Assembly (NCBI RefSeq): GCF_964204645.1
Contig: NC_134034.1
Coordinates: 5,864,914-5,928,913 of the forward strand
Origin: Tubulanus polymorphus
Taxonomy: Eukaryota; Animalia; Nemertea
DNA length: 64,000 nucleotides
Direction: 5' to 3'
Made by a program: the position numbers and the translations under genes
In this document: positions 17,697 to 41,305 of the stretch, in pieces
Numbering within the stretch: the stretch's first letter is position 1
How the letters are laid out: each line of letters opens with the position of its first letter
The notes under the pieces: model-generated
Seen by the model: only the letters and a program-made list of their open reading frames with translations
Databases searched by the model: none
Told to the model about the DNA's origin: nothing

Positions 17697-18195
17697 GCAC
17701 TAATAATAAACACTAGGTTTAATTATGATTATGTCGCCGACTCTCGACTCACAGAGTGAGGAGGTGTCATATTAATGAGAAGGCAAATTTGGTATGTGGC
17801 AGGTGAATGGGTAATTAGTGATTAGTGGATTAAATTTGGAATCAATTATTTGAGATGAAGGATGAGTAGAGTTTGTAAAGTAAGTAGAGTAAAGAATAAA
17901 AGTGAAATATTGAATAGAGAGATTGTATATAGGATAGAATGAAGATAGTTTGTACGTATATGCGCAAGTAAAAAGAGTAGATATCAAACCAGAAATATGC
18001 ACAGAATATGCACAGAAAACACAGTCCAGTTGAAGTAGTATTAGTCCAGTTGAAGTAGTATCACAGTTCAAAAATTAAAATCTAAAAGTTCGTTGATTAG
18101 TCCGAGAGATGATTTATCCAAGTAATTGTAGCAACAGCGATTTTAGTTTATGGGTTGATCCAGCGTTGTCCATACGTCGAGTAGTTGAGAATCTC

Positions 18196-18876
18196 CTAGA
18201 AGAGGGTGGGTTCAGTGCTGCTTTCCAAGTTAATGCTACTTTGTAGATACTGTCTTTTTTTTACATGTTTATTGTCGTATAGTTCATCCTTGGTAACATG
18301 ATGTCTGTAGAATTGATAATTGTTCGATTTAGTTAAAGATTCTAGCCCCTGGTTTATACTGGCGACCTCTTCTTCGGATTTGTCGTTCCTCGGTAGGATA
18401 GACGCAATTTTGATTTTAGCCTCGGGCCAGGTTTTCTTAACTGCTTCTACGGATTTTTTAAGTTCTTGTACTACTTTCGCTTCAGTTTTCGTATCCCAGT
18501 CGTTCGTTCCACAGTTTATCAGTATCGAATCTGGATTGCATGGTTTTTCTTCGTTTCGTTGTGCAACGATGTTCTTTACCTCTGAGAGGGTCGGACACGG
18601 ATATATGATCGTTTTACGATTATTTTCAGAAAGTCCAGAAGGTGACACATATTTTCGGTTGCTGTCCGCGATAACTATACCGGTAACATTTCGTGGTTGG
18701 TCTTGGGTGTCCGTGATTGTGCGATTTGTCGTCGTTGTAGTTGGTTCTGTAGTTTTCGATTCCAGAGTTGTGATTCTTTGAACTAATCCATCGATGATAT
18801 TTTCGAGTTTTTCGATTTTGTTGTACAGTTCTAAATTGGTTTCACGAAGATCGTTGATTTCGTTTTTTGCTGCCAT
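18196..18876 (-). CDS. LINE ORF1p: coiled coil plus SGNH/GDSL esterase domain
   Basis: 226-aa open ORF with heptad N-terminus, IADSN (block I), INCGTND (block III) and YDNKH (DxxH). Confidence 0.85.
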   Translation of the reverse strand: MAAKNEINDLRETNLELYNKIEKLENIIDGLVQRITTLESKTTEPTTTTTNRTITDTQDQPRNVTGIVIADSNRKYVSPSGLSENNRKTIIYPCPTLSEVKNIVAQRNEEKPCNPDSILINCGTNDWDTKTEAKVVQELKKSVEAVKKTWPEAKIKIASILPRNDKSEEEVASINQGLESLTKSNNYQFYRHHVTKDELYDNKHVKKRQYLQSSINLESSTEPTLF

Positions 18877-19572
18877 TGTTGAATTTTATGATACAAGCTT
18901 TCTGTGAGGTTTTGGAGAGCGCGCGAGAATGCGTGTTAATCGCTTGCTGTCATTCAGTCAATCAGCCATTACTGAGAAATATTAATTTTAAATCTTAAAT
19001 CACTAGAAATGTATTTTGAGCACTGCTCATTAGACCGGCACTCATTCATGCGCATAGGCAGCTAGCGTCTTTCAGTTCAGAACCGGTTCATCGTACGTAA
19101 AACTGCTGCTTTTACCCTCTTCAAAAGTTATGAACTAGATAGTATGACATTCAAATCAGCAAGGCATCTTGCTCGCTGCTTGGCAGGTATATTTTAATTA
19201 AATCTTGTGCCACAGGTTTGCATTTCATGTTTAAGTTCAATATTTTTTGGCAAAAACAATCACATTCAATCCAATTCATTCAGTGTATTTCTCAAGTATT
19301 TATAGCTGTAACCACAATAGTAGCTGCAGGCTGGTTGTAGTTTCCTTGGTGCGCTTGACAAAATAAAGCAATTTGGAATGGATACCTGCATATAAATATT
19401 ACAAAGTTTTGATCTCATGAAAGGCTTTCTATACCCAAACATTAACCTAAGACTACAATTAAATGTATTTGCAGTGTTGATGAGTGTCTTCCATTTATGC
19501 ATCACTATGTATATGATGAAATCTGACATACTTGCAAAAGAAAGTTATCTTACAATTTTGTTCTATTTTTAG

Positions 19573-22500
19573 TGAAACATACATCAGCCAGTTTGTGTCT
19601 TAATGAGGTGAGACTCCAGTCCTAGCGGTCTTTAAATGCAAGTGTATTTTGTTTAAATGAACACTGCAATGAAAATTGGTAAATGATGGCACTTGCTCGT
19701 GGTTTGTTGGTTCTTATATGTACCTTTTTGTTTTTTCTCTAGTCATATGATCCGGATGTAAGGTAAAAGGAAGCAATCTAATTTGACCAAAAAACTGTTA
19801 TGGATGTATACGGTTGTATTCCATTCATAGAAACACATGTTCCTACATATTTTCAGGACTGATATGGAGATGATGCTGGATAGGCTGGCACCAGAAGTAT
19901 GTAATGAAATCTCAAAACATCACAACTTTCTTACACTGCATATTGACCCAAAAGGCATAATTTGAAACAATGATTTCTCTAAAATCCCTCAAAGTATAAA
20001 TGACCTTTGACTGCCAACTTTCTGAATCACAATACACTAAAACATTCTGTGAATACTAGGGTTAAGTGATGGGAAAATTCTTTTGTCAAAAATTGTTAGT
20101 TTAGATTTATTCTAAATGAATCATTAATATTTCTAAGTCAAAACAAGAAAATGATACCAAATACTTAGTTCTTTGTCCTGTATATTCCCGTACCACAATT
20201 TCTATTTTACTTTTCATTTTAGAATGCACCTTACCAACATACAGCAGAAGGTGCTGATGATATGGTAAGGGGAACACCTTTCTGTTTATATACTTCTATA
20301 TGGTAATGTTTAAATAGACTTCAGTTTGAGATATAAGATAGCTGCCTATACATAAACTTTATGCATATGTATATGGAGCTGCCTATACAGCTATTGATTC
20401 GAGTCCTTGAAAGTACTGATCGGATCTGTTTCACAGGAGTAAGTGGGTAAAGTTCCACACACCGTCATGACGTCCATGTCTTTTGAGGCCAATCCTGTGA
20501 TAATAGATATAGGATGACAAATGAGTTTCGATTATTTGACCACTTCATTTATAACTAATATTACCACCGGTACACATCCGCTCTTTTTGGCTGGTAATAA
20601 TGTTATTTATGGTTCAATGGAAAATGGTTGGATTCAAGATCAACTCATTGATATTGGAAGTTTATTATATCGAATGAATATCGAATATAATATGAATAGG
20701 TTTGAGTGAACAATTGTGGTTAGTTGGTGTTGTTATGTTAGCTAACGATATAGTACTGTAGTACAAGTATTTACGATGCCTGACATTAAGGTGTTTGATG
20801 AGTGTGGAAAATCTAAAATCTTGAACAATCAGCAATGAAGATAATGCTTAACTAATGCTGTATGAATGCCGATATGCCATCTCTGTTATCTAGAATCTGC
20901 GTGGTTTTAAGTATTTAGTACCCGCTTACAAATATATTTAATTTGTTTGCAGCCAGCACATGTAAAGAATGCTTTGCTCGGTTCAAGTGTCACGATACCT
21001 ATTAAAAATGGACAGCTAGTTACTGGTACATGGCAATCGTTGTGGTTTTGCGAACACAGGCGTTCAAAGCGTGAGTTGTTTCTGCAACAGACTAGTTGAA
21101 AAAAAAAATTTCAAATTTCATACTGGGGAATGAACGCAGCAAGAGAAATGTCACGTTGTCACTGATTGGTTGTTATTGCAAATTTGGTATTCGTTGTTTA
21201 GCTTCTCTGAAATCCTATGGTTTCATTCGAAATCTTTCTTGTTTTCTGAAAACAACAAGATGAAGTTAAAAATCTCCTTTGTTAAGTTAAACAAAGTATC
21301 TAACGTTTGGCAATGCTCATTCGCTGGAGAAAAAGCGCTAACATTTTTTGTAATTTCGAGGGTTTGGTGCAACATGGTGATAAGTGCTTATTTCACACTT
21401 TCGAGAAAAATGAATTTAAAGATTTGATGAAGATTCACAGAGTCCATATACCGGTATGAGATACAATTCCAATTGAATTAAAAATAATACAACACCATCT
21501 TATGAATACTTATACAGAATTTTATTAATATTAATCTACAACTAATTAGTAAAATATTAATTAATGTACTTAACACCTTGTTGCGTACAAACATTTTTTT
21601 ATTGAATTCTCCGCGATATGGTGACAAGTGACAGTTATAACCATGTTGCATGAAACATACAACTTCCTAATTTATGTACAAACGGTTTAAGTGACACTTA
21701 ACACCTTTGGAAATGAACATTTATGACTTCACTAAAATATATAAAAAAGCATTAAAATGATTAACTAACTACAAGTATCTCCACCACAATTCAACGCAAT
21801 TATGTCCTAAATCATATGATTTTTATATGTCAAATATCTTATATCTAAAGTTTCTTTTCACCTGACACCATGTACTGTCAATTCATCAGTCATCGATGTC
21901 ACTGTCTGGGTCATCAGAGACACTACCCGTGGGAAGTTTTGAGAAGTAATCGTGGTACTCCTCAGGAACGATTTCCTTCTCACAAAGCTTAATAAGGTCC
22001 TTTTTCTTTGCGCTAGAAATTGGCAGTTTTACGCTGTAGCCTGGCTGTAAGCAATAGTTCGAAATACTTTTCGCCCTAGTACCAGGTTGCACTTTAATCT
22101 CAATCAGTTTTGGATCGAAATCGTATCCCACGAACAGACTACAAGCCGATTCTCTTCTTACTTGTATCCATTTAATTTGAAGCCAATGAACCTTTTCTTT
22201 TTGTGTGCCAATTTTGGTGTTTCTTATACAGGATTTCACAAAATCTTTGAAGTCAAATACATCCGTGTATTTCATTGGTATGACAATATACGGTCGAACT
22301 TTCCTGGCATATGTGATGACTGTGCTCCATTGAGAAGGAAACACCTCAGTCCTTGCCTTTGCCTTCTCAATAGCCGAATGCATACTGTTCTAAATCGACG
22401 AAACGAATCCTCGAAAATCTATTGAACACGAAAGCACAGCTACATTTCAAACTCAGCGTGTTTATTTTAGCAACTAACGATGCTGCACTATGCCATATAA

Positions 22501-25500
22501 TGCCGGTTTGCTACAAATATGAAAATATATATATAAGTAATCAATTCAATTTATGCAAAGAAAACTAACCCACAGCAAATCTAAAAATTCGTTACTTACA
22601 ATTACTGTAGCTCCTCGAGCAAGTTTCTACGAAAATGACCAATGCTCAACTGTGAGATATTCAATATATACTGTATATATAATGTACTAGACTTAGTAAC
22701 AACAAAGCATGGAGAGGTTCAATGAAGGGTTACAAATCCTACAGTACTAAAGCTAAACTCGACTACAATAAAATTCTATAGCAGCAAACCGGACTTCAAT
22801 TTACAACACAGCACCTCCTAAACATCCGTATCAGACGGTGTTTGAAAATATAACGATATCATATTACAAAGATTACATGATTACTTCAAATACATATTAT
22901 TGTCGTATCAAATATAAGTAATTATCTCGCACATACAAATACAAATTTAATCAAGATAATTATACAATACTCTCTTCCAATACGCAAAGCTTAACTACTG
23001 GTCGAACATATTCTGACGAAGAGGTTTTTACTTTTACCGAACGAATTCGTCCATCATTAGGACTAGGATAAACTTCAATAATACGACCCAATGGCCATTG
23101 ACCACGAGGAATGTCTTTGTCTTTGATTAACACTAAGTCACCTAATTTGACATTTTCTGTATTTTCTAGCCACTTGCTTCTCATGGTTAAGGGTGGCAAA
23201 TACTCTTTCAGCCAGCGACGCCAAAAGTGGTCTGCCAGAACCTGGGACTGACGCCATCTTTTTCTACTGTTGATTTCACGCTCATGAAATACTCCAAGGG
23301 CCACGACAGAACTAGCACCCCCGTGTAAAAAGTGGTTTGGTGTAATGGGTGTAAAATCTGCAGGATCCACGCTATTATAAGTTAAAGGTCGACTATTAAC
23401 AGATGCTTCCACCTCTATAAGCGTTGTTCGCAGCACGTTTTCAGGAAATGATTGTCCTTTAAGGACTGATTTGATAGCCGCCTTTACCGTTCGAACCAAT
23501 CTCTCCCAAACCCCACCAAAATGGGGGGCACAGGGACTATTAAAGGTCCATTTAATACCCTTTTCATGACAAAAATTAGAAATACGAGATTGATTTAATT
23601 GTGTTAAACATTCTCTTAACTCTCTCTCAGCTCCAACAAAGTTGGAACCATTGTCACTATAAATATGACTCGGCTGACCACGTCGCCCAATGAAATTCCT
23701 CAGAATTAGTAAAAATGTGTCAGTTTCCATTGAGTCAGCTACTTCCAAATGTACTGCACGAGTTACTAAACACGTGAATAAGCAAACCCATACTTTGATT
23801 GTAGAACGCCCTCTTTTGATGAATAAAGGGCCAAAATAGTCTACCCCACTAAATTGAAAGGGTCTGCAATGACTAGTAATTCTATGTGCGGGTAAATCCG
23901 ACATAAAAGGAACTCTAGGCTTAGCTAATCGACGACGACAACTGAAGCACCGCGAAATCGCACGCTTTGCGACAGATCTAGCTTTAATTGGCCAGTACTT
24001 TTGACGAACTAATGAAATCAAGTGCTCTGGACCAGCATGGAAATGAATAAGGTGTTCTTTTCGTACAAGAAGCTCCGTGATATGATGAGAGAAAGGGAGA
24101 AGCAACTGATGGCGCGCCTCTACGGAAACATTTGGAGCATTGTGAATCCTTCCACCTACTCTGATACAGGAGCCATCAAAAACTGGATCAAGACAGCGCA
24201 AAGAACTATGATCCTTTAACTTCCCCTTTTTAAGGAAAGAGAACTCCTCTGGGAATGAGTCACGTTGGGCTTGAGAAACTAAGCATGTTTCCGCAAAATC
24301 AAAATCTTCCACTGTCAAAGTTTTTGCTTTTACAGCTGTATATCCCAAACGTGGAACGTGTAATTCCTGATAGCCCTTAAAATCCAAGCTGTTCTGCGTA
24401 ACAAAGGGTTCCAACGAGAATAATCCTCCGGCTGTACAAGACCCGTTAAGTCAATGACTGGCTCAGCCTGAGGAAATGCTAAGACTTTATTCACTAGCTT
24501 AGTTTTCTTGAGATTTTCATCTATATCTGAAATGATACCTAGATCAGGCTGAGACGGCCATTGCTTTTCAGGAACACGGAGAAATTCTGGACCTGCAAAC
24601 CAACGATGCGAAAAAGTCAGATCAGAAGCTAAAAGCCCCCTTGAGCAATCGTCAGCAGGATTCGACTCGGATGCAATATACATCCACTGATTAACCGATG
24701 ATATTTCACGAATTTCCCCCACTCTATTGGCTACAAAAATCTTGAATCTTTTTTTTTCATTACGAATATATCGTAAAACAGTTTGTGAGTCAGTCCAATA
24801 AGAGACTTCAATGTCACAAATTTCTGACAGTTCTCGCTTCAAAACCTCACCCAAACGAACCGACATAACTGCACCTTGCAGCTCCAATTTCGGCATGGTT
24901 AAAGGATGTTTTGTAGGAGCTAAGTGAGTTTTTGAAGCGAGAAAGGTAGTTTGAAATGAACTATCAATCAAATAACGCAAATATGCTACACTACCAAATG
25001 CCCTCTCGGACGCGTCACTAAACAAATGCAACTGTACATTACTAACAGAAGGAGAAAACAACTCATGGTGACGAGGAATTTTCAGCTCATGCAACAACTT
25101 CAACTCATTTTGCCATTCATCCCAGGTTACCAATAAGTCCCCAGAAATATCTTCATCCCATTCGAACCCAGACCGCCATATATCTTGAATCAAACACTTG
25201 GCCCTAAGTATGAATGGTGATAGGAAACCTAATGGATCAAAAATGGATGAGACAGCGCTTATGATACCTCGTTTAGTAAGTTTAACATCTTTGATAACAG
25301 GTTTAAATACAAAGGAATCATTCTGAGCGTTCCATTTCACACCTAAAGTCCGTTCTACTGATAAGTCACCTAAGTCTAGGTCTAACGAAGGGTTAGCAAG
25401 TTCTTCAGGGTGAATTTGGGATAGGACCCATTTACTTGATGACATCCACTTTGTGAGATGGAAACCTCCTTTAGCAAGAATATCTTTTACCTCATAAGCT

Positions 25501-28500
25501 AATTGCAACGCTTTGCTATCACCAGGAAAATCATCCACATAGAAATTTCGCAAGAATTTACAGCGATGCTACTAAAACAATCAATGTTATCACGAGCTGA
25601 TCTTTTTAGAGCGTAATTCGCACAACAAGGCGAGTCTCGAGCACCGAAAATGTGCACCAACATCTTAAAAACCTCTGGAGAACCATATGAGCCATCTGGC
25701 CGCCAAAGGAATCTCAATGATTCAGATTCGCTTTCAGAGGTTCTCACTTGATGAAACATCGCTTGTATGTCCGCAACAAGCGCTGTTTCAAATAAACGAA
25801 ATCTTTGTAAGACACCAAACAAACTATTTAACAGATCAGGGCCTGTCATTAGTAAGTTGTTTAACGAAGAACCCCTGAACTGCGAAGCTGCATCAAACAC
25901 TACCCGAACAAGCCGGGTAAATTTTTTCGAGTTTCGGTGCTCGAGACTCGCAATGGTGAGGAAGATACCAAGTTCTAGGTGTCGAAATAATTTCTTCCTC
26001 AGGAGTCAACTTTCGAGCATACCAGGCGGAAATATAGCCATTAAGTGTATCACAATAGCCATTTTTAATTACAGAATCTTTACACAGGCGGTTTGTTAGC
26101 AAGTCAAATCTTCTCTTAGCTAATGGAAAGTTATTTGGTAAAACACTATTTTCATCTCTCCATAGCATACCTACTTGATAATGATCACCCACAAGTTGGG
26201 TTGTTTCTTCAAGAATTTTAAGAGCTCTTTGATCTTCAACCGATCCAATCTTATCAGGGTAAGTTACACCAAAGGATTCTGTTGACCAAAAGTTCTCAAT
26301 TTGTCGTGAGAGTGAATTTTCATCAACAAGAGAGCATTCCGAAACAATTGAATGGACGTGAACATCGCACAAGTCATTTGACATGTTCCCAAACAAACAC
26401 CACCCTAATCTAGTCCGAATAGCTAAGGGCTGATTTGATGTCCCTTCCCTTACCTCTAATTGTATATGTGCCCTAGGTACATTTGCACCCAAAAGTACTT
26501 TAACCTGACGTGGGAATGTATCAGGAAATCGCAGACCCTCTAAATGTTTCAACTTATGAGGAGAAAATTCATTATATTTCTGAAGTGGACAACTGATATT
26601 ACCAGATGTAGTCCATGCTTGGGACACATGAATGATTTCTGACAAAGGATCATTGCTTCGAACGGTAAAGGAAACACGGCGAGATAACTGTGCATCTCTT
26701 GAGTGAAGTGTGTTGATAGTCAATACTTGTTTTTTACCAGACAACCCTAAATCAATAGCCAGATCTTCACGGATTAATGTCACGTCACTCCCAGAATCCA
26801 GCAGACCATACGTCGATATACGTCTTCCGTTAGCACCCTGAACCACAATCGGCAAAACCTGAAAATACACGTCAGAACAATTACTATCGAGACCAAGAAC
26901 TATATTGCGTTCTATTGCGCTAGGTGCTACACCTTGACTACTACTGGCTTGCGATTCACTATTACAAGTGTCTAGATTCTGAGTTTGATTCCTTTGTTCA
27001 ATATCATTAATTTTGATTTTACGTTTAACATGAAGCAGTGTATGATGTCTCTTGCCACACCCTGGTTCTTTACAGCAAGAAAGAGATTTGCAAGTCGCAA
27101 TGAAATGACCAGGTGACAAACAATTAATACACAAACGTAATCTCTTGACTAGAGCAAATCTTTCATCTACCGATTTATCAATGAAATCTCCACAATTACT
27201 CACAGAATGACTACCTGAACAAATAACACATTCAAATATTTTCCCACCTGACACGCAACTGCTAGACATCTGTTTCGTGGAATTATTCACATTGATTTTC
27301 CGTGATCCTAAAGCATTACTAGAAAAATTATTACGTTTCAATTTCAACCTATTTTGTTGTAATGAAAATGGACCGAAGTCAGCGTCAACACAATCTTTGA
27401 GCCAACTTTCTAGATCAAACAATGTAGGATCTCGTTGTCGAGATATACGTCTAACGAATTCGTTCCATTTTGAACGCTTGTCAATCGGGATACGTTTTAC
27501 AACTTTCTGTAATAAATCACTACTGCCAATTTCAGAAAGATAATTCATTTGTTTTAGAGTAATTAAGCAATCTCTCACACTAATGTAAAAGGAACGTAAT
27601 GATATTGAATCATATGAATTTGTGGGTGGACCGTTCGTAATTGATTCAATATAAGCCTAGCTACGTGTACTCTGTGTCCAAACACAAACTTTAGCTCCTT
27701 AAGGGAGCGTGCATAATTACAACCACTAAACCCAAGACCTTGAATGAGCTCTCTGGCCTCACCTTTCACATGCGACTGCAGAAGGTCTTGACGTCTGGAA
27801 TCTTTGATCCCGGGACGATTATGTACTTGCACATAAAACTGCTCAATGAACCTTGGCCATACAAGTGGTGAACCGTCGAACATCGGGAGACCAACTTTCG
27901 GTAAATCTCTATCAATCTCCATCTTGATAACGGCTTCTTCCAGGGAGGTTGAAGTGAGGTTGATGATTCCACATTTACTATAGTTTCGACTCCTTCGACC
28001 AAATCATCGATCCACGCATCAATGGTCCTAAGCGACGAGTTGTTTACAGCATTCGTCACGACATTCTCTGAAAGATCCTCTGCAACTGGATGCGACACGG
28101 AAGATGTAGACGACGCTTGGAAAATGGGTGCATTCGGATCAAGAGACGAGTCTCTTTTAGCAAAATTGTCTAACCTTTCTAAAGCAACCATAGCTTTATC
28201 GAAATAACACTCCATCCAACGCCCAGCGGTTTCGATTTCTTCTTCATTCTCGAGTACAGACATGAACTTGTCGTGAGCAGTTTGCAGATTTTGCAAACAT
28301 CCAGTGATACGTTGCTTTGCCGGTTCAACAGCCGCCGATATGCGAACTGAATCCGCAGCATCAATAGCACGAGTAAGCCAACCAGCGAGACTTGTACGAG
28401 TGGCTTTCAACGACTTACTTTTACTAGTATTTGAATCTTCGTTATCGGTCATGATGAGCTTTCGAGTAATTCAAACTATAATGTTCTAAATCGACGAAAC

Positions 28501-31500
28501 GAATCCTCGAAAATCTATTGAACACGAAAGCACAGCTACATTTCAAACTCAGCGTGTTTATTTTAGCAACTAACGATGCTGCACTATGCCATATAATGCC
28601 GGTTTGCTACAAATATGAAAATATATATATAAGTAATCAATTCAATTTATGCAAAGAAAACTAACCCACAGCAAATCTAAAAATTCGTTACTTACAATTA
28701 CTGTAGCTCCTCGAGCAAGTTTCTACGAAAATGACCAATGCTCAACTGTGAGATATTCAATATATACTGTATATATAATGTACTAGACTTAGTAACAACA
28801 AAGCATGGAGAGGTTCAATGAAGGGTTACAAATCCTACAGTACTAAAGCTAAACTCGACTACAATAAAATTCTATAGCAGCAAACCGGACTTCAATTTAC
28901 AACACATACTGTCGCATTCCATCTGACTGTGCCCTGATTCTAGAAATTTCTGATTTATTGTCTGAAGTTGTGGATTTTCTCTGAGTGCCAACAGTTAAGA
29001 GCAGGCTACGAATTGGTTCCAGTTTGGACCACCACATGTGTCAGAGTAGTACGTGATTATATCAACCATTCTGTTTGATTGGCATACTGAAGCTGTATTA
29101 CGAAGTAAACATCACAGGGGCTTGTAAACTGGCTTGGATTTTACTTCCGGGTTGTTGATAATCTCGCGAGAATGGCGCTAAATTTAAACTGCAAATAAAT
29201 TCAAAATATCACAGAAATACCTCGTGTTGATGTTGTTTATTTATCCACTATAGAGTTTTGATAAACAATTGGCTGTTAAGGATCAGTATCAGCGGGCGCG
29301 ACACCTTACTATATTAAAATAACAAGGGATGAAACGGCTTCGCTTTTGCCTGTGACCGTATTGATGCGGCGGAAACCACTGCGCATGCGCGGCAACTTTC
29401 CGAAAGGTTAAGATCAGTTCAAGTTCAATTGATTCTTCTCAAAAACCTATGTCAAGCCAAGGCAATCACACTTCTAAGGAAATTATCAATTTTTGAATTG
29501 ATGTAGAAAAACTATAATGTGTAGTTTGATTGACAGCTCACAAGCGCTCGGAAGTTGCTGCGCATGCGCAGTGGTTTCCGCCGCATCAATACGGTCACAG
29601 GCAAAAGCGAAGCCGTTTCATCCCTTGTTATTTTAATATAGTAAGGTGTCGCGCCCGCTGATACTGATCCTTAACAGCCAATTGTTTATCAAAACTCTAT
29701 AGTGGATAAATAAACAACATCAACACGAGGTATTTCTGTGATATTTTGAATTTATTTGCAGTTTAAATTTAGCGCCATTCTCGCGAGATTATCAACAACC
29801 CGGAAGTAAAATCCAAGCCAGTTTACAAGCCCCTGTGTAAACATGTGGCGATTTCATTTGAACCCCTTTTGCCTTGGGTTTCATCCCATAAATGACATAT
29901 GCCTTGGCCATCTCCAAGAGAATTAACACTCAAGTTATATACACAGTTTTCTCGAGTTGTATAGTTCGCCCACCTTAGAACAGGGTGTAGTCAGTACTGC
30001 TCCTAAATCAAAAGTCGCTGTGTATTCCTGTGTATTCTTCAATATGGCCTTCATCTTATCTTTCTCTTTTTCCAAGCGTGCTTCGATTTTCCTCTCTTGA
30101 TGACTGATAAACTTTTTCTCTGTGGCATCATCCAGGCTTCCTGCTTCAGATTTCATTTCATAAAGATGACAAGTGCTGCATTTGTCCCCCTTGGGCTTAA
30201 AGAAAGAAATGTTGAACTCCTCACAGAAAATCTTCCTGTATTTTGACTCTGTAACGTACGTCTCGCTATTCTTTTTGCAGTACTCAACATATAATTTCCA
30301 CATTCTGCTTATGTTGAGGTCACCGGAGATATACACTTTCTTAGTATCTTTCCTGGTATAGTGCGACTCGACCTTGGGGAACATTTCTATGTGTTTTCTT
30401 ACATTATCGATCATCTTTTCACTAATCTTATTGTGGGGAGGCGTCCTTTTATTTTGGTTTGGGACAACAATCTCATGCTGTTTTCTTTTCATTGCTGTTT
30501 CCACTGGCTTGCTGGAAATATCTATTGTATCAAGGAAAAACTTTTTGCAAACCCTATGACGGGTACTACCATTCATGAGATTATATTGGTTGTAAGCTTT
30601 TCTTTTTCCTTTAGAACGAGCTGGTGTTACACTGTCGACCATTGAAGCAATAAAATCCAGTTGCCTGTCATTCGATCCCAAACTGTAAAAGCAGTCAAAA
30701 ATCTCTCGCCTTACCTCATCAGGAATCTGATTATTGCAATTAAATCGACATTTACTACAGTCAGTATTTTTCACAGATTTCTTTTCAACAATTTTGTTTG
30801 TTCGCGAGATGTATTCTTGACCTGACACTTTCAGTCTCTTATTGACATTTCTTCTCCACAGTTCTGGGTCAGCTTTAGTTTTCCTTGCTCGTTTTGTCTT
30901 TTTTGGAGACTGGTACTTAGCTCTTTTATATGGCGTTAGAATCCTGCATTAGTTGCCAGTTGCAGGTCTTGTTCATCATTCTGAAGCGGGTTACCTCCCT
31001 CTTGTGTCACAGTTAGATTATGTATCAACGTCCCCTCCCCTTCATCCATCTGAGCATCAGTCACTAACGAAGGTTTTTGGCCCTCAGTTAGATTATTTAT
31101 CATCGTTCCGTCCTCTTGATCCATTTCGGTATTAGTGACCGGTGATTCTTCTTGCCTCTCAGCTTCATTATTTATCGCTGTACCATCCTCTTGGTCCATT
31201 TGCTCGATTATAGTTTGTTGATTGTTTGAAGGTTCTGTTTGTTTACTCTGGTCTAGCCTGGTTTGTTTTTCATTAATAAAATTTTGATGTTTATATCTTA
31301 TTATACATGTCTGATATATGATGGATTGGTAAGATGTTGGACTTTTTACTGATATAATGCCATAATAATGTTCTTCGCCAGGAACAGCAAGATAAGCTAA
31401 TGGAACTACAGGTATTTCTTTTTCAGTTTTCTGCATATTTGATGGGCATACCTCACATACAGGAGAGAGTACGCTGCTGGAGAATATTTGAATTCTACAA

Positions 31501-33475
31501 TTGAATATATTTGCCACAGCCAATGGGATACAATCTGTGATCTCATTATTCCATATTCCATTTTGTCTGATATTGTGAATATCCTTAACAAGTCCTAGCA
31601 TCTGCCTTTTCTCTGAACCGGTTCTGAATCCAAGATATTTCTTTTTGTTACTAGAAATATGATCACACACATCATTCCTGAACAGATCAATATTGAACTG
31701 ATCGGCCTCATCGCAGGTCTTTAGAAATGATTTAAAGAAACAGTTACCATCGGGATAACTTTCAATTTGTTTCATATCGTTGCTAATTAATAGATTATCC
31801 AATCGTTTTAAGTGATATTTTTTCATCATTTGATTGATTTTCGATTCTTTCTTTGACAGGTCTTTAGCCTTTTTCAGTCGAATGTTGACATCAGTCTCTT
31901 CCAGGACAATGCTGCAATCTGAGTCTGAAATCTCGCTTGGCTGATGATAATCTTCATCATTATTATCATCATCACCATTTGATGATTCATTTTCATATGG
32001 ACGCTTATCCACTCTGATTATCCACTACTCTATTATCCGCTTATCCACTACTCCATTCTGATTCTCAAAACAGAAAATATAATTGGGGTTACATATTTGG
32101 TTTTGTATTATGCAATATTAAGGTCATTAATATTCATAATCTATTTTTTGTTGAGCAAATATAATTAACTTACCATCTTGAATTAAATCTTTGCCACTGT
32201 CATCGTTTCCAGTACAGGATTCGTGATTGATAGAAATAACTGTAGATATCAAAATATCAGAGACGTTGAATTCAGAATCTGAAATTCCATTATCGGACCA
32301 TTCGATCTGTGACAGAAAGCACAAGTTTAGTTTTACATATTAAGAAAGAATCTATTTCTGTAAAAACCACTTTAGAAATCTCATTTAAAAAACCATAAAC
32401 GTATTAATGACAAATTGCCGCATGATCGGAGATTCGTCTGTAGCCTAGGGAATTGGATGGTAATATTGTGCATTGTATTAAGCTAGCCACATTAGGCGAA
32501 ATACAAGCTGTGTCTTTTTACATGGTTCAAATATGTTGCATATATGATAAATGTTAAATTTCTTCAAAGATTATTTTTAACATTAATACAGAATGCTTTG
32601 AATTAACACACAAATTTATCTTAAAATTTATTTAGTGAATCAAAATTCATGATTTTACATTAAAATATCACTAAAATTTCACTCACCTCAGCCATTATGA
32701 GTAAGGAAAATTGAACAGCATCTACTCAGCTTGCAAAATATATACTGCAAAGCCTATACATGTATATAGTTATATTGACCCCATAACAACAGGATTAAGC
32801 AATGAATCTCCTGATACACAAGATGTTAAGTGATAAGAAATTTAGTTATAGCTACACATAAGTTGTATGCACAATAGAGATAAGTGACACTTATAACTCT
32901 GTTGCATAAAACCACATGCACTTAAACCAGTTGTGCAGTAAACAAATGTTTAAAAATCACTTAATCCATTTGTACATAATTAATTTACTAATTAATCAAT
33001 TATTAGATTGGGAATAAAATTTCTCAAAAGAAGCAGGACATACATAGGAAGCTTGTGATACCAATTACTCAATTTGACCAAAAAAATGCACTTATCACCG
33101 TGTCGCACCAAACCCTCGATTTGTTCTTTTTGAGACCTTTGCGCTAACGATTTTATCTCCACTCAATAAATGCAATACTGGATCTAACCCTTCACGAAAC
33201 CATCCAATTGACACCAAATGTAAAAAATGTTTTTTTTTAGAATAATTGATGGATTATATCGAACTTAACATTTATATGGAAAATTAAGGACATTTTTAAT
33301 ATAAACATAGCCAGTTGCTCTCGAATAGTCGAATTACGTAGAATGGAACTTCTTTTAGGTCAAGACTTGTTGAAGTAAGTTTACATTGTTTTCTTGTGTG
33401 AATGTTTCAGCAAAATGTTTTGTCTTTTCAGATTCAAGACAGGTTGTTGTTACCATACAAGGACAGACTCAATGA
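19573..33475 (+). CDS. yjbQ: UPF0047 / YjbQ family protein, spliced host gene (5' exons not securely located)
   Basis: Exons 19573-19607, 19743-19762, 19857-19896, 20223-20264, 20953-21070 and 33432-33475 all have AG/GT borders and consistent phases. They give KHTSASLCLNESYDPDVRTDMEMMLDRLAPENAPYQHTAEGADDMPAHVKNALLGSSVTIPIKNGQLVTGTWQSLWFCEHRRSKHSRQVVVTIQGQTQ*, containing the HTSASL..NE, EG.DDMPAH.K and GTWQ....E motifs of YjbQ. Confidence 0.93.
21886..22383 (-). pseudogene. Sola1 transposase, C-terminal part
   Basis: MHSAIEK..PSQW...KLPISSAKKKDL..LC...IVPEEYH.YF..L; rejoins ECDS at 28910 once the BEL element is removed. Confidence 0.85.
22386..22808 (-). repeat. 3' LTR of the BEL/Pao element
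   Basis: No differences found by eye against 28482-28904. Confidence 0.95.
22960..28452 (-). pseudogene. BEL/Pao gag-pol polyprotein split over six frames
   Basis: ORFs 27766-28452, 27575-27922, 25893-27578, 25499-25900, 24330-25553 and 22960-24414. Confidence 0.93.
28482..28904 (-). repeat. 5' LTR of the BEL/Pao element
   Basis: Gag ATG at 28452 lies 30 bp downstream on the minus strand. Confidence 0.95.
29113..29837. mobile_element. Foldback MITE with ~285-bp TIRs and 7-bp TSD (P/Galileo-like)
   Basis: CACAGGGGCTTGTAAACTGG...CCAGTTTACAAGCCCCTGTG; TAAACAT flanks both ends; removal restores the Sola1 codons EIATCLLR. Confidence 0.9.
29935..30828 (-). pseudogene. Sola1 transposase, N-terminal/central part
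   Basis: 297-aa ORF; continues with stops at 29838-29934, 28910-29112 and 21886-22383. Confidence 0.85.
30936..32012 (-). CDS. OTU-family cysteine protease (deubiquitinase-like) domain ORF inside the Sola1 element
   Basis: PDGNCFF catalytic Cys motif, R..VCDHI helix, G.W....DCIPLAVAN.F.C.I.I, and LAY.....EEHY catalytic His motif; acidic low-complexity flanks. Confidence 0.8.
   Translation of the reverse strand: MDKRPYENESSNGDDDNNDEDYHQPSEISDSDCSIVLEETDVNIRLKKAKDLSKKESKINQMMKKYHLKRLDNLLISNDMKQIESYPDGNCFFKSFLKTCDEADQFNIDLFRNDVCDHISSNKKKYLGFRTGSEKRQMLGLVKDIHNIRQNGIWNNEITDCIPLAVANIFNCRIQIFSSSVLSPVCEVCPSNMQKTEKEIPVVPLAYLAVPGEEHYYGIISVKSPTSYQSIIYQTCIIRYKHQNFINEKQTRLDQSKQTEPSNNQQTIIEQMDQEDGTAINNEAERQEESPVTNTEMDQEDGTMINNLTEGQKPSLVTDAQMDEGEGTLIHNLTVTQEGGNPLQNDEQDLQLATNAGF
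33432..33475 (+). CDS. yjbQ: Terminal coding exon of the YjbQ-family gene
   Basis: ttttcag|AT TCA AGA CAG GTT GTT GTT ACC ATA CAA GGA CAG ACT CAA TGA; joins the phase-1 C of exon 20953-21070. Confidence 0.88.
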
Positions 33476-34054
33476 GCCCATTGATCAGTAGCTTGGTTTT
33501 AATTCAATGTATCTGGTTAAGATATTTTATTTGTAAGACATAATCTTGTTGTTAGAAATATAATTGAAAAGGCTATTTAAATTAGTTTCCAAACTACATG
33601 TAGTGCGTATGACAATATCAATAGAGTCTTGGTTTTGTCTTGTCAATGTCTTTGGCTAAAAACATACAATTTTAACAGTTTTCGACTGACCGAATTTCAT
33701 TAATCAACACCCTGACGAAGTTATGCTGAAACCAAGTACCTATAGGCACCTAGCAATCATTTGGATGATCCCCCTTGCTAATCCACTCGATTCTTATTTA
33801 ATGAACACAACATCCACTGGTGAAGTAACGAGGATTGAAAATTCACAAGATCGTTTCTATGTCGAATGGAAGAACCTAAGAAGGTACACACTTCCTTCTG
33901 GGTGCGATCTCTGTATTCTAGTAGGGAAGGATTATATAATAATGAATTCTCTTCCCATGAAATTATAAGTTCGGCTTCATTATCACTAGCTGACCATACG
34001 AGTAAAATCCCACAATAAATGAATTAAGTGATAAAATGTTAATTAAAATATATA

Positions 34055-34096
34055 AAAAATATTTCGGGTGGTTACTACCACCCTTCTTCAGTCTAA
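34055..34096 (-). ncRNA. Minimal hammerhead ribozyme core in the Penelope pLTR
   Basis: CTGAAGA-A-GGGTGGT(AGTA)ACCACCC-GAAA; stems I and III are weak. Confidence 0.65.
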
Positions 34097-34290
34097 AATG
34101 ACTTGCCGAATACAAACACAGTATTAATACATGAAATATGAAATAAGACACGAATCGCTGCACATTACGTTATGGGGACTAGAGCACTGACATAACTTGA
34201 AAGAAGTTTATTATGGGGGCTGAAACCATTATTGAGTTTGACAGAACGATCTGAATGAGTAGTAATCAAAGCAGATTCATCTATATGTCG

Positions 34291-36140
34291 TTAAGTGTGA
34301 CTACTGTTGGGAAAAATAATATTGGCTCCAGAAAAATCAAAATTGTGTGCGGTAACCAAAGAATGAGAGACTACCCCGCTTTCCAATTTAACCCCATGGA
34401 ATACATCTTGTTTATGTTCTTTAATACGTTCCTTAATATTCCTACTAGTTTCCCCAATGTAAAAATGGTTACAATCAGAACAGTTAATTTTATAAACTCC
34501 ACAATGGACATTAGGGCTCAGATTGTTATTGGAGCAAAAATTAGAAATTTTGTTATTATACTTGAAAAATGAATCGGTATTTAAATGACGAAGAGCCGGT
34601 TTGAATTTGTCAAGGCAAGGGACAAAGGGAACTATAATTTTGTTTTTTGGTTTAGACGAGTCAATAGGATTACGGGGTTGAGCAGGAAAGAAAAATACTT
34701 TTTTGGCTTTGTGAAGGGCTTTCACTAAAATCTTGTCCGGGTATGCAAGTTTTTTAAAACTGGATTGAATATGCAAAATCTCATGATCTAAAAAGTTTTA
34801 TCACAAATCCTATAAGCCCAAAGGAAAAAACCTTGAACAACGGCCACTTTAAGGTAAGTGAATGAGAAGAAATGTAGGTAGGATCACAGTTAGTAGGTTT
34901 ACGAAAAACAGAGAAACCTAATCTCGAATAAAAATTATGTATGAGAACATCCAGAAAGGGCATTTTTCCGTCAATTTCCCACGCAAAGGTGAACTTCAAG
35001 GAAGGATAAAGGGAATTAAGATATGTCGAGAAAGATTCGAGGTTAAAATCAGTTGATACTAAACATAAAATGTCATCAACATACCTGAGCCATAGAAGAG
35101 GCGCAAACCCAGTGTATAGGGGTAAAATTTCCGATTCAATATGTTTTAAGAAGAGGTTAGCTAAAATCGGTGAGAGGGGTTGCCCATAGCAAAACCATAA
35201 ATTTGCTCAAAGAAAATGCCATCGAATTGAAAATAGGCTCTTCTATCACATAATTCGAAAAGGTCAATGAGACAGGAAAATTCAAATTTAAGGATGGAAG
35301 TTTACGTTTAATGAAATCTAACGTTGGTTCCAGAGGGATGTTGGTGAATAGAGAGACTGCATCAAAAGAGATGAACTTGTTACCCTTGGGGGTAATGTGA
35401 CGTAATCTTTGTAATAAATCCATATTATGTTTGATATGAGAACCAGAGAATGACCCAAGTAAGGGAGAAAGCATTTTGGCAATAGATTTAGAAAGATAAT
35501 AAGAGGGAGAGCCTCTGCTTGAAATTATAGGGCGTAAAGGGACATGACGTTTATGAATCTTGGGGAGGCCGTAAGCATAGGGTAAACTGGGTAATCGGCT
35601 GGTAAATTTCATAATGAATTTCTTATCAGTAGGATGTTTCTTAGACAGGTTTTCTAAATCTTTGTTAAAATGTTTTTGCCAATCTTTTAAAGGATCTCGT
35701 TTGAGCTTCTTATAAGTATTAGAGTCAGATAAGATATCATTCATTTTACTTATATAATCAGTCGAATCAAGGATAACTATTTTACAACCTTTGTCAGCTT
35801 TAGAAATTTGTAGTTCTTTAAAGGATTTAAGTTCTGAAAGCGCGATCATAAAACATTTGGGAAAGAATTCACGTTGCACACGAGTCAAATTGTCAAAAAT
35901 CTGGGAAATGTTCATAAAAACGAAGTTGTATTCAAAACTCCCTGAGCGTGATTGTTCAAGTGATTCCATAAAATCAATGATGTGTTTCTTGTTGTGTGGT
36001 AACGAGATATTTAGTCCAAGTCCGAGTACTTGAAGGTGAGAGTCTGAAAGTTTTTTAGACGATAGGTGGACCACATTATCCTGGTTGCAATATTTAGTCC
36101 ATGGGCTGTTGGTGATAAGTCTGTGAAGTTTAAAATCCAA
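34291..36140 (-). pseudogene. Penelope RT-GIY-YIG ORF, frameshifted
   Basis: ORFs 35157-36140, 34781-34999 and 34291-34776. Confidence 0.9.
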
Positions 36141-36415
36141 TTCGGTAGATTTCCTCCTCCTGTGAAAATCGCAAAAGTTTTTAACACCGGATCTAAGTCT
36201 GTTCCATAAATATAAATCAGGTATTATACGACTTATCGCGGCGCGTTTATAACCTTGCTTCAGTCGTTATCATCTGAAACCTTTGACAGGTTTGGAAAGT
36301 CCAGAGAGACAAGTTGAGTTACTCTAAATTGCGTATCGTAATTTATTTCCAACTTGGAACTCCAAGCGGTGTATGCTTGCTTGTAGCTAAGACAAGACAA
36401 AACTAACTAACTAAA

Positions 36416-36686
36416 TGTTACATTTTCGGCTATATATATATATATGTACAAGATTAATTGAGGAGTGCAAAACTAACAATGGTTGTCGGGTGACGAGACA
36501 TAACATGTTTTTCATAGGTGCGACAGATAGAACAGTTTGAGCAGGACAGAGACATAGCAAGACAAAGACAAGGAATGAGGTGCGACAGACAGATAAATGA
36601 CAGGCTAATTAATAATTCACAGGCAACATGTAGCAACAAACTGTACACAAAGAAAATATGAAATTTACACTATAATATTCCCCTTT
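36416..36686 (-). repeat. Probable single LTR with polypurine tract
   Basis: TGTTACA...TATAATA bounded segment; AAAGGGGAA precedes it on the minus strand (36678-36686); no partner LTR in the window. Confidence 0.4.
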
Positions 36687-38194
36687 GCTGCCGAGAAATT
36701 TGCTCCGGCAAATTAAAGATAAATTAAATAGTATGGCGACAAAGATGAATTGAGATTTTGAATAAGTCATGAATTGTTTGAATATAATGATTAAATATAT
36801 ATGATCAGATTAATCTTAAACGAGGTTAAACCAAAATGCCAATGCTGAATGACTTGCTAAGATACCTAGATACTGACTTTCTTAAAATAATCTTATGCTC
36901 CTAGTTACATAATTTTTTTTTAGATGCAATTAATCACATTTAGTTCACAATTCATGGGTGTAACTATATATTATTTCAAACAGCGACAATAGCGCAATAG
37001 TACATTGAAAGTGTAAATGTGTAGATCGTCAATTTATATCTAGAATAAAGTCGGCAGTTTGATTCTAAGAGTATTTGAATGTATAAGATGATTAGAAATA
37101 CAGCTAGTTATTAAGTGATACGCACATACGTAAAGTATGACTGTTTGTGTTAACCTGAGGTGATGAGACAGATCTCAGTTGGCTTATACAAATGCGAGTT
37201 ACATAGCAAGAACAATTAATTTGTTGGTAAATGAAAATACACTATAACTAATAAAGATATTGCAAATCAAAATAAAACATAGCAAGTAACATAAGGTTGC
37301 ATTGAGTGGCACACAGTTAAATTTGTCTAGATTTAAATCCATGCGCATTATGTTTGGTTGATGAAATGTTCCAAGAATTTAGTGTTATATTTATGCTGAA
37401 TAATAATCTGGCTGAAGAACGTAATTACGATTAATATTCATAGATTCATTAATTTGCTCCTGCATATGCGTGTGATTTTGACTCAACTCGTCCCAGATGT
37501 CGTTAAATTTCTGGAAACATGATTCGAGTTCACGCATTTCAATTTTATAATCGCATAATTCCAGTTTTGGTTGAATATAATAATTGCCTATTGTTGCATA
37601 GCCTGTTTTATCAACTTCTGTAAAAACGTCAATGAAATTAAAGCAAAATTCACATTTTTCTGCGGCACCGATTGGATCAGCTTTTCTTTTCTCCAACTCA
37701 GATAGTTCAGCATTTTCAGTTTGAACTGATGCGCAGTTGGATTCTATTTCGATTGAAGAAATGCTTTGGATATGAGTCGGATCTGTTTGCGGAAACTGTA
37801 GATTTTATTATTTTTGTTTGTGTAGCAGAAACAGAAAGTTGGCGACACTTAGCTTCGGAATAAAGATCGGTCTGAATGCCAGCTGCAACTAGTGGTGATT
37901 TCTCTTTCGGCTCCGGATCTTTTTGTTTGTCGCTTTGTTGCATTCGTTTCTTTAGAAATGCGTTCATTCGATTTTAGTCACGCTTAATGGTATTCGGTGA
38001 TTTTCTATTACGTATGCGTACCTTTTCGTAAGTCTGTGGTGTATTTGTGTCGTTGTCGTCCTCGGAGTTAGCACTAGCTGTTTCCAAATTCCAAGCTATG
38101 TCAGTGCTCTAGTCCCCATAATGTAATGTGCAGCGATTCGTGTCTTATTTCATATTTCATGTATTAATACTGTGTTTGTATTCGGCAAGTCATT

Positions 38195-38236
38195 TTAGAC
38201 TGAGGAAGGGTGGTAGTAACCACCCGAAATATTTCT
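38195..38236 (+). ncRNA. Minimal hammerhead ribozyme core in the inverted pLTR copy
   Basis: CTGAGGA-A-GGGTGGT(AGTA)ACCACCC-GAAA. Confidence 0.65.
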
Positions 38237-38632
38237 TATATATTTTGATAAACATTTTATCACTTAATTCATTTATTGTGGGATTTTACTCGTATCGTTT
38301 TATCACGGATATTGCATTCTGCAATTGATTCAACTAGCTGACAAAGTTGACTCGATGGAGGTCACCATTTTGCTATCACGTTTACCGTCAAAGAGCTGTG
38401 ATTGGCTGGTTAATACAGCGCTCGAGGTGACTGATCGTGTTAACCGGATGCACTAGGCGATTCAAAATCCTCTGCTTCAATTCCAAAAAATGCTAGCCAA
38501 CTCATTTTATTAGCTGTCTGGTCTAAAAATCACTTGTTAGTAGAATTATTTAAAAATTTTATACAAAGGCGGCCGGCTATGTGTAACATTAACTTGGGGA
38601 AAATGAGAAATAAGGTTTATAAGGTAAATAAT

Positions 38633-40964: not shown

Positions 40965-41305
40965 CATCCTCTCCCGGCAGGGATTCGAACCTGATGGCAT
41001 CGAGATTCCCGCAGCACCCAACCCTGCCATAATTGACCGTGTGCGCAGATACATGCGCAGTTCAGATGATGTGATTTTTAGCCAATCAGAAATCCGGTTT
41101 TATTTTAGCCCGGGTTTTCCCATTTATAGTTCTTCCTTGAAATTTGCCTCAACGATTATACAAAGAGCATTCTGATTGGTGCCGCCAGTTTTCGTTCGGA
41201 AAGCTGCGCATGTATCTGCGCGCCCGGTCTACTGATGCAGGGGTTCGTGCCGTGGCTGAGCGTAGTGATGCCATCAGGTTCGAGTCCCTGCAGAGGGAGG
41301 ATTAT
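40965..41305. repeat. Inverted pair of tRNA-like (Pol III B-box) sequences around a symmetric core
   Basis: GATGCCATCAGGTTCGA(A/G)TCCCTGC on both strands; inverted TGCGCAGATACATGCGCAG and CCAATCAGAA; partial third copy at 63323-63387. Confidence 0.65.

What the first reader, a model, noticed from the sequence alone, without database searches (positions are those of the whole stretch)
29935..32695. Sola1 transposon encoding an OTU deubiquitinase-like domain, probably fused to the transposase
Seen: inside the Sola1 TIRs, an OTU domain (DGNCFF...EEHY) lies immediately upstream of and co-oriented with the transposase. The OTU frame stops at 30936 where the transposase frame opens (LTPYKRAKYQSPKK..WRRNVNK..SGQEY), so a one-base indel or a splice would join them. 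Two upstream exon candidates exist (ATGGCTGAG|GTGAGT at 32695-32687; 32306-32174 ending |GTAAGT), though their join to the OTU ORF is not in frame as read. Known: OTU domains occur in Helitrons and viruses, and Ulp1-type proteases in other DNA transposons. Inference: a cut-and-paste transposase with a tethered deubiquitinase that could counter ubiquitin-dependent silencing or degradation. The residue two after the His is Y rather than the usual D/N, possibly post-insertion decay.
Basis: partly seen in the sequence, partly recalled or inferred. Interest (0 to 1): 0.78.

Follow-up and report, generated by a model that had tools for sequence, protein, structure and literature searches.

The report
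Sola transposase with built-in OTU deubiquitinase
This is a dead copy of a cut-and-paste jumping gene from a widespread invertebrate lineage whose intact relatives encode the transposase and a ubiquitin-removing (OTU-type) protease domain as one protein, which likely lets the transposase strip the host's ubiquitin tags from itself or its surroundings; such pairings are known in other jumping-gene families but were not found in print for this one.

Summary
Confirmed and extended. An 11.8-kb Sola1-type element (33118 to 21357, minus strand; 31-bp TIRs; AAAT duplication) holds an OTU domain (Pfam 28.8 bits, cut-off 23.3; OTUD1/OTUD3/Otu2 fold, Z about 16) upstream of a DDD transposase. This copy is dead: two frameshifts, a stop, a MITE and a BEL/Pao LTR element break the gene, and the residue two after the catalytic His is Tyr. 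The fusion is ancestral: 50 of 176 relatives carry the same OTU ahead of the transposase in one predicted protein, 20 with both active sites intact. Cys is kept in 29 of 30 and His in 34 of 35 at 29% mean identity; OTU and transposase trees agree. Two clam Sola1 proteins carry an unrelated herpes-type (VTD) deubiquitinase in the same slot. The scan noted like fusions in other superfamilies, none in Sola. Activity and substrate are untested. New variant of a known kind.

The parts
21357..33118 (-). Sola1-type DNA transposon, whole decayed copy: 11,762 bp with two nested insertions, 4,506 bp without them
   Evidence: TIRs and 4-bp AAAT duplication; five collinear tblastn segments to the intact relative P0001
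33088..33118 (-). 5' terminal inverted repeat (31 bp, begins CGAGGG)
   Evidence: (I4); same terminus in relatives L027, L028, L029
21357..21387 (+). 3' terminal inverted repeat (29 of 31 match)
33119..33122 (-). Target-site duplication AAAT (AWWT), outer copy at the 5' end
21353..21356 (-). Target-site duplication AAAT, copy at the 3' end
32687..32695 (-). Candidate coding exon 1 (ATG, 3 codons, GT donor); no RNA evidence
   Evidence: sequence; with exon 2 it gives an N-terminal E-W-S-D motif like that of 6 of 25 OTU-bearing relatives against 0 of 56 others
32174..32306 (-). Candidate coding exon 2 (133 nt, starts IEWSD); join to the OTU exon out of frame at the best acceptor
31359..31850 (-). 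OTU domain with its long N-terminal helix; Asp 31751, Cys 31742, His 31370, His+2 Tyr 31364 (Asp or Asn in most relatives)
   Evidence: Pfam; lineage HMM E 4e-47; AlphaFold model pLDDT 93; Foldseek and VIA-align; residue table
30940..31358 (-). Acidic low-complexity linker with a 75-nt direct repeat (31010-31159)
   Evidence: D2; linkers of relatives run from about 0 to 377 aa; linker disordered in the model of P0007
30936..30948 (-). Frameshift between the OTU frame and the transposase frame
   Evidence: contigs of runs X1, X2, X3 cross it without a gap, so it is in the genome and not an assembly error of the window
29941..30939 (-). Transposase N-terminal half: paired TPxK/SPxK sites, basic stretch, Cys-rich region, first catalytic Asp at 30009; ends in a second frameshift
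   Evidence: 48% identity to P0001 residues 578-910
29838..29963 (-). Transposase piece after the second frameshift
   Evidence: 67% to P0001 residues 904-945
29113..29837 (.). Inserted MITE, 725 bp, 286-bp perfect inverted arms, 7-bp duplication
   Evidence: (I1)
28905..29111 (-). Transposase piece with second (29042) and third (28913) catalytic Asp and an in-frame stop at 28997
22386..28904 (-). Inserted BEL/Pao-type LTR element (label from ORF motifs, recalled), 423-bp LTRs, 5-bp duplication; absent from another allele
   Evidence: (D1); a contig of run X1 joins 22380 to 28905 and skips 6,524 bases
21886..22389 (-). Transposase C-terminal piece to the stop codon
   Evidence: 52% to P0001 residues 1010-1168

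Best explanation
This is a decayed copy of a Sola1-type cut-and-paste transposon from a lineage whose intact members encode an OTU protease domain and the DDD transposase in one chain, and the OTU domain is likely an active deubiquitinase tethered so that it would remove ubiquitin from the transposase itself or from proteins at the transposition site. Shown: element anatomy, single-chain fusion in relatives, OTU fold, conserved Asp-Cys-His-Asp residues, co-divergence of the two domains, and breakage of this copy. Inferred: the OTU was gained once and kept by selection on catalysis. It cleaves ubiquitin chains in cis on a flexible tether. The main benefit is a longer life of the transposase against proteasomal removal. 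The paired CDK-type TPxK/SPxK sites that follow the linker in most of this lineage may be the phospho-signal that the DUB counters, though they could equally regulate the adjacent basic (likely nuclear-import) stretch.
For: Fusion: the 7 best of 12 long relatives have OTU plus transposase in one protein; 35 of 161 and, after an OTU-profile search in which 18 of 18 hits carried a downstream Sola transposase, 50 of 176. Four DNA loci show one stop-free frame across OTU and transposase, and L029 is a whole element with CGAGGG TIRs and an ATAT duplication. Catalysis: Cys in 29 of the 30 relatives that cover it, His in 34 of 35, His+2 D/N in 31 of 35, at 29% mean identity; 20 of 50 have both active sites intact by motif. 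Fold: best hits OTUD3, OTUD1, yeast Otu2 and OTUD5 (Foldseek E 1.6e-7 for 4bou; Z 16.6, 16.4, 16.2). Single gain: a 36-member transposase clade (support 0.93) holds the window, 27 OTU proteins, 8 with short N-termini and no long N-terminus without OTU. 9 of 11 strong transposase splits recur in the OTU tree; Mantel r 0.70, 0 of 2000 permutations. Tether: residues 243-278 of P0007 are disordered between two confident domains. Convergence: two Mercenaria Sola1 proteins carry a VTD-type DUB domain (Pfam Herpes_teg_N 32.6 and 41.5 bits, cut-off 25, QC and DPH motifs present) in the same N-terminal slot. Helitron VTDs cleave K48/K63/K11 chains in vitro, and the authors propose protection from proteasomal degradation (PMC9741609, passages).
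Against: No activity was measured. As of 2022 no transposon OTU had been tested (PMC9741609). Most Sola1 transposases lack any DUB (111 of the 146 relatives kept in the tree had neither OTU nor VTD, though 86 of those have short, possibly truncated N-termini), so it is not needed for transposition. The substrate is unknown: a conserved triad fits any protease role. Most relatives are gene predictions without transcript support. One OTU protein (P0151) falls outside the 66-member clade and gives the one strong tree conflict. The CDK-site link (29 of 47 against 1 of 90) is a clade trait, not independent evidence, and 10 of 47 OTU proteins lack such sites. This copy cannot work: it has two frameshifts, a stop, two insertions and His+2 Tyr.
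Confidence: 0.55

Rival explanations
1. The fused OTU is an active DUB that acts mainly in trans on chromatin or repair proteins at the donor and target sites (for example H2A-ubiquitin or damage-signal chains), relieving silencing or steering repair of the break, not stabilising the transposase.
For: The same fusion and catalytic evidence as above. Bao et al. 2010 propose a role in DNA repair during transposition (PMC2836005, passages). The transposase would carry the domain to TIR DNA.
Against: No reader domain (PHD or the like) was found in the OTU-Sola1 proteins scanned. No test here separates this from the cis model.
Confidence: 0.27
2. The OTU is a polyprotein-processing protease that cuts the acidic N-terminus or itself off the transposase, as proposed for Medicago MULEs.
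For: Suggested for OTU-MULE fusions (PMC1702500, one passage). A long disordered linker separates the domains.
Against: The linker varies from about 0 to 377 residues, and no shared cut motif is visible in the alignment. No 2A-like motif in 176 proteins. Most Sola1 work without the domain. The fold is closest to ubiquitin-specific OTUD enzymes.
Confidence: 0.1
3. The OTU is passive cargo or a separate insertion into this copy and plays no part for the element.
For: In this copy the two frames are not joined, and the element is full of insertions.
Against: The same OTU subfamily precedes the transposase in 50 of 50 relatives. Catalytic Cys and His are among the most conserved columns (97%) at deep divergence, and the two trees agree. 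A 74%-identical OTU sits in a sister element's predicted protein (P0163).
Confidence: 0.04
4. The frameshift at 30936-30948 is a programmed or spliced switch that makes OTU-only and OTU-transposase products.
For: The break is present in all three runs laid.
Against: Relatives read straight through this point (xTPxK in frame). The copy has another frameshift and a stop, so decay is the simpler reading.
Confidence: 0.04

Closest known systems
Ginger1 DNA transposons with OTU (Bao, Kapitonov, Jurka 2010, PMC2836005; abstract and passages read)
   Same: Cut-and-paste element with TIRs whose transposase carries a Pfam PF02338 OTU domain in the same protein; the OTU and Ulp1 proteases are interchangeable between families; a role in transposition was proposed.
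   Different: Ginger1 has a Gypsy-integrase-type DDE enzyme with the OTU at the C-terminus and CCGG/CCGT targets. Here the enzyme is a Sola-type DDD transposase, the OTU is N-terminal and the target is AWWT.
Sola1 transposons (defined by Bao et al. 2009, not held; AWWT hallmark as cited in PMC3845634, passages)
   Same: 4-bp AWWT duplication, short TIRs, DDD transposase with DUF7869 matches in relatives.
   Different: No protease domain is mentioned for Sola in any paper that my searches returned; most Sola1 relatives here lack it.
Helitron/Helentron OTU and VTD deubiquitinases (Erven et al. 2022, PMC9741609; abstract and passages read)
   Same: Transposon-borne DUBs of two unrelated classes that replace or accompany each other; VTD activity shown in vitro; protection from the proteasome proposed.
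   Different: Those are rolling-circle elements; that paper does not mention Sola (0 hits). Here both DUB classes occur on a cut-and-paste Sola1 transposase.
Medicago MULE transposases with C-terminal OTU (Babu et al. 2006, PMC1702500; one passage read)
   Same: OTU-superfamily protease fused to a cut-and-paste transposase.
   Different: MULE superfamily, C-terminal position, polyprotein processing proposed.
OTUD-subfamily DUBs: human OTUD1, OTUD3, OTUD5 and yeast Otu2 (PDB 4bop, 4bou, 3tmp, 7pl7)
   Same: Best fold and profile matches; same D-G-x-C and H-Y-D/N layout.
   Different: Only 15-20% identity; no donor gene is identified, and linkage specificity cannot be transferred.

Membership tests
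Sola1 DNA transposon | 4-bp AWWT target-site duplication | tested here: met
   AAAT on both sides in the window; ATAT on both sides of L029 and on the left of L027 and L028; hallmark cited in PMC3845634
Sola1 DNA transposon | Terminal inverted repeats | tested here: met
   31 bp, 29 of 31
Sola1 DNA transposon | DDD catalytic triad in an RNase H-type transposase (definition recalled) | tested here: met
   Asp at 30009, 29042, 28913, aligned with conserved columns of relatives. The P0007 model matches IstA, TnsB and MuA transposases only weakly (E 4e-4 to 3e-3)
Sola1 DNA transposon | Transposase groups with Repbase Sola1 references and not with Sola2 or Sola3 | not testable with these tools
   No Repbase set is held. 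The Sola1 label rests on the TSD and on recalled motifs; relatives match Pfam DUF7869, which bears no superfamily name
OTU cysteine protease (PF02338) | Profile match above the curated cut-off | tested here: met
   28.8 against 23.3 bits
OTU cysteine protease (PF02338) | OTU fold | tested here: met
   Model pLDDT 93.3; Z 16.6, rmsd 2.8 A over 148 residues to 7pl7; Z 16.2, rmsd 3.0 A over 140 to 4bou
OTU cysteine protease (PF02338) | Cys-His-Asp/Asn triad in this copy | tested here: not met
   Cys and His present, His+2 is Tyr
OTU cysteine protease (PF02338) | Cys-His-Asp/Asn triad in the lineage | tested here: met
   Cys 29 of 30, His 34 of 35, D/N 31 of 35
OTU deubiquitinase | Cleaves ubiquitin conjugates | not testable with these tools
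   Needs Ub-PA, Ub-AMC or di-ubiquitin assays
Ginger1 (OTU-bearing) | Gypsy-integrase-like transposase, C-terminal OTU, CCGG/CCGT TSD | tested here: not met
   No integrase Pfam hit, OTU N-terminal, TSD AAAT
Active autonomous element | Intact reading frame | tested here: not met
   Two frameshifts, one stop, two insertions

The most novel reading that the evidence does not exclude
Sola1 transposases have twice, independently, put a deubiquitinase at their N-terminus (OTU in this lineage, herpes-type VTD in a clam lineage). In the OTU lineage the domain sits next to paired CDK sites, so the transposase would carry both a cell-cycle degradation signal and its own eraser: a self-deubiquitinating, cell-cycle-gated transposase.
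Probability: 0.2. Interest if true: 0.72.

Novelty: new variant of a known kind. Interest (0 to 1): 0.44.

Why it matters
Ubiquitin and SUMO proteases keep turning up on unrelated transposases, yet what they do is untested for OTU. This lineage gives a clean system: many compact, single-frame elements with both active sites intact, close Sola1 relatives without the domain, and a branch with a different DUB class in the same slot. That makes the question 'do hosts restrain DNA transposons by ubiquitinating the transposase?' directly testable, and a stabilising module could be useful for transposon tools. The copy in the window is itself only a fossil.

Tried and rejected
No whole genome is held, so no family consensus or dN/dS among copies could be made. 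No RNA holder listed. In run X1, only the locus's own contig, the other TIR end and a 33-base piece were laid on 29842-33160 at 80%: no second close copy was seen, which contigs cannot prove; X1 may be the window's own sample. A single-sequence search with the OTU region for longer proteins found 0 of 356 candidates; the 5-sequence profile then found 18. No relatives in viral contigs (0 of 79 pattern matches). The OTU HMM hit only 4 of 29 loci; the other 25 are Sola1 without OTU or cut short. My TIR scan of 13 loci gave matched ends for L029, truncated ends for L027 and L028, and for L001 a different TIR whose flanks did not give a 4-bp duplication. An assembly error at the frameshift was rejected. 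2A-like motif: 0 of 176. ESM Atlas nearest clusters were viral OTU proteins at 0.93-0.94, a lead only; I draw no viral origin from it. Literature: searches with Sola or Sola1 plus OTU, 'cysteine protease', 'ovarian tumor', Ulp1 or Ginger, and transposase plus deubiquitinase plus 'OTU domain', gave no paper linking Sola to OTU. Term look-ups in PMC5751038, PMC10294476, PMC4455052, PMC5753468, PMC6446971, bioRxiv 2021.09.26.461848 and bioRxiv 2026.06.17.732966 showed none (passages only; supplements not read). A vertnin search gave nothing useful. Bao et al. 2009 and Repbase Reports could not be read and may already note the domain. No complex was predicted, as no ubiquitin sequence was on hand.
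Full report
Observation. On the minus strand a 362-codon frame (32024-30936) holds DGNCFF and EEHYYG, and a 337-codon frame (30948-29935) begins LTPYKRAKYQSPKK. The first matches Pfam OTU at 28.8 bits against a cut-off of 23.3. Both lie inside inverted repeats that begin CGAGGG at 33118 and 21357 (29 of 31 bases match), each flanked by AAAT. AWWT duplications are cited as the Sola1 hallmark in PMC3845634 (passages).

Anatomy. tblastn of intact relatives gives five collinear pieces: OTU, transposase 30939-29941, 29963-29838, 29111-28905 and 22389-21928. Between them lie a frameshift at 30936-30948, a second near 29945, a 725-bp MITE (29113-29837, 7-bp duplication) and a 6,519-bp BEL/Pao-type LTR element (22386-28904, 5-bp duplication). 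There is also an in-frame stop at 28997. The three catalytic Asp codons (30009, 29042, 28913) remain. A contig of run X1 joins 22380 to 28905, skipping exactly 6,524 bases, so the two outer parts are one element and the LTR insertion is polymorphic. Contigs from all three runs (at most two samples, one study) cross the OTU-transposase frameshift without a gap, and X1 keeps the His+2 Tyr codon. The copy is therefore dead in the genome, not misassembled. Without the insertions it is 4,506 bp.

5' exons. The two exon candidates have good splice signals. Together they would start the protein with an E-W-S-D motif; W[SP]D occurs in the first 30 residues of 6 of 25 OTU-bearing relatives with long N-termini and in 0 of 56 others. 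This supports them, but the join to the OTU exon is out of phase at the best acceptor (32063) and a stop lies at 32027. A weaker in-phase acceptor at 31924 exists, yet the sister protein P0163 is similar upstream of it. No RNA was available.

The fusion is ancestral. A search with the transposase half for longer proteins returned 12 hits. The 7 best carry OTU and transposase in one chain (5 of the 7 above the Pfam cut-off, 2 below), the eighth carries a partial OTU, and 4 carry none. A full HMMER search found 8,034 relatives and listed the best 150; of 161 distinct proteins then held, 35 had the OTU ahead of the transposase. The reverse search, with an OTU profile, gave 18 hits, all followed by a Sola transposase. 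The total is 50 of 176, all 50 with a downstream transposase, and 20 of the 50 have both active sites intact by motif. Named hosts are molluscs (Mytilus, Mercenaria, Batillaria, Littorina) or symbiont MAGs. An unchecked note of the scan calls this window's genome likely a ribbon worm; I did not test that. Four DNA loci have a single stop-free frame across both domains, and L029 is a complete 6.4-kb element with CGAGGG termini and an ATAT duplication.

One gain, long kept. In a FastTree tree of 146 relatives plus the window (15 of 161 dropped for short alignments; midpoint root), a 36-member clade with support 0.93 holds the window, 27 OTU proteins and 8 proteins with N-termini too short to tell. 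A wider 66-member clade (0.93) holds 33 of the 34 OTU proteins in the tree, along with 4 long N-termini without OTU. For 37 of the 50 OTU proteins with both domains well covered, plus the window, OTU and transposase trees share 11 of 35 splits (shuffles: mean 0.2, maximum 2). Nine of 11 strong transposase splits recur, one strong conflict involves P0151, and patristic distances correlate at r 0.70 (0 of 2000 permutations). This shows co-inheritance, as expected of a fused gene. I ran no formal one-clade test, and losses or a second gain at the edge of the clade are not excluded.

The domain is built as an enzyme. At 29% mean pairwise identity, Cys is kept in 29 of the 30 relatives that cover it, His in 34 of 35, and His+2 is D or N in 31 of 35 and never Y. 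Cys and His are among the most conserved columns. The AlphaFold model of the window's domain (pLDDT 93) matches OTUD3, OTUD1, yeast Otu2 and OTUD5 best, as does the sequence profile. In a model of intact P0007 the OTU and transposase are confident domains joined by a disordered linker. The transposase part matches IstA, TnsB and MuA only weakly.

A second DUB in the same slot. Two Mercenaria Sola1-type proteins begin with a Herpes_teg_N (VTD) domain above the Pfam cut-off, with the QC and D-x-H motifs, in a clade apart from the OTU lineage. Two unrelated DUB classes at one position point to selection for deubiquitination as such (inference).

Mechanism. Most likely (0.55) the tethered OTU removes ubiquitin chains from the transposase or its complex and so prolongs its life. 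This follows the proposal for Helitron DUBs, whose VTD domains cleave K48, K63 and K11 chains (PMC9741609, passages). Paired CDK-type sites right after the linker in 29 of 47 OTU proteins, against 1 of 90 without OTU, would fit a phospho-triggered degradation signal; but this is a clade trait and may instead regulate nuclear import. Action on chromatin or repair proteins (0.27) is the main rival and was proposed for Ginger1 (PMC2836005). Self-processing (0.10; PMC1702500) is less likely given the variable linker. Passive cargo and a programmed frameshift are nearly excluded. None of these functions was tested; most Sola1 lack the domain, so it is accessory.

Novelty. OTU fused to a cut-and-paste transposase is published for Ginger1 and Medicago MULEs, both C-terminal, and OTU/VTD exchange for Helitrons. 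Six literature searches found no report for Sola, but Bao et al. 2009 and Repbase Reports were not readable and no supplements were read. The scan's earlier notes list like fusions in MULE, hAT, Ginger, RAG1-like and other elements but none in Sola; these are unchecked and gave leads only. The Sola1 label rests on the TSD and recalled motifs, not on a comparison with reference sequences.

Verdict. A real feature, correctly read: a fossil copy of a widespread, apparently undescribed OTU-Sola1 lineage, with an independent VTD-Sola1 branch. It is a new variant of a known kind, useful mainly as a clean test system. Interest 0.44.

Noticed in passing
P0084 and P0087 (Mercenaria mercenaria XP_053395869.1, XP_053396810.1): Sola1-type transposases with an N-terminal herpes-tegument-type (VTD) deubiquitinase domain, catalytic QC and DPH motifs present, in a 6-member clade (support 0.96) apart from the OTU clade. 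Not found in the passages of the VTD paper read.
   Followed up: partly
window 30939-30910 and relatives: Two or more full CDK-consensus sites ([ST]PxK/R) just before the basic stretch in 29 of 47 OTU-bearing proteins, against 1 of 90 without OTU and 0 of 2 with VTD.
   Followed up: partly
N-termini of OTU-Sola1 relatives: Short acidic motif ending in xPL ([DES][DE]xPL) in 12 of 25 against 4 of 56 others, and W[SP]D near the start in 6 of 25 against 0 of 56; possible host-binding linear motifs, partner unknown.
   Followed up: partly
L027, L028, L029; P0003, P0005, P0021, P0165: These elements and proteins are filed in bacterial MAGs (Sedimenticola sp., Ca. Thiodiazotropha), some named as OTU proteins; likely host-animal DNA binned into symbiont genomes (inference).
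   Followed up: no
window 22386-28904: Young BEL/Pao-type LTR element (LTRs identical over the 300 nt compared) inside the transposase gene; polymorphic, since an allele without it is in run X1.
   Followed up: partly
window 29113-29837: MITE with 286-bp perfect arms, CACAGGGG ends and a 7-bp duplication; very many related contigs in the runs. The duplication length suggests the P superfamily (recalled, untested).
   Followed up: partly
window 33993-38298: Broken reverse transcriptase plus GIY-YIG-like frames (34291-36266) between 210-nt inverted repeats; looks like a Penelope-type element (label recalled from motifs).
   Followed up: no
window 54343-57108 (minus): Open 921-aa frame with motifs recalling RAG1/Transib/Chapaev-type transposases and a Cys-rich finger (label recalled, untested).
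   Followed up: no
window 14750-18885 (minus): Fragmented LINE (endonuclease and reverse transcriptase pieces, with an upstream esterase-like ORF1; labels recalled from motifs).
   Followed up: no
P0163: Closest relative (OTU 74% identical): its predicted protein runs from the OTU His motif directly into the catalytic core and lacks the transposase N-half; an internal deletion or a gene-model artefact.
   Followed up: no
window 40966-41302 and 51517-52005: A small palindromic element, and a 20-codon tandem repeat array.
   Followed up: no
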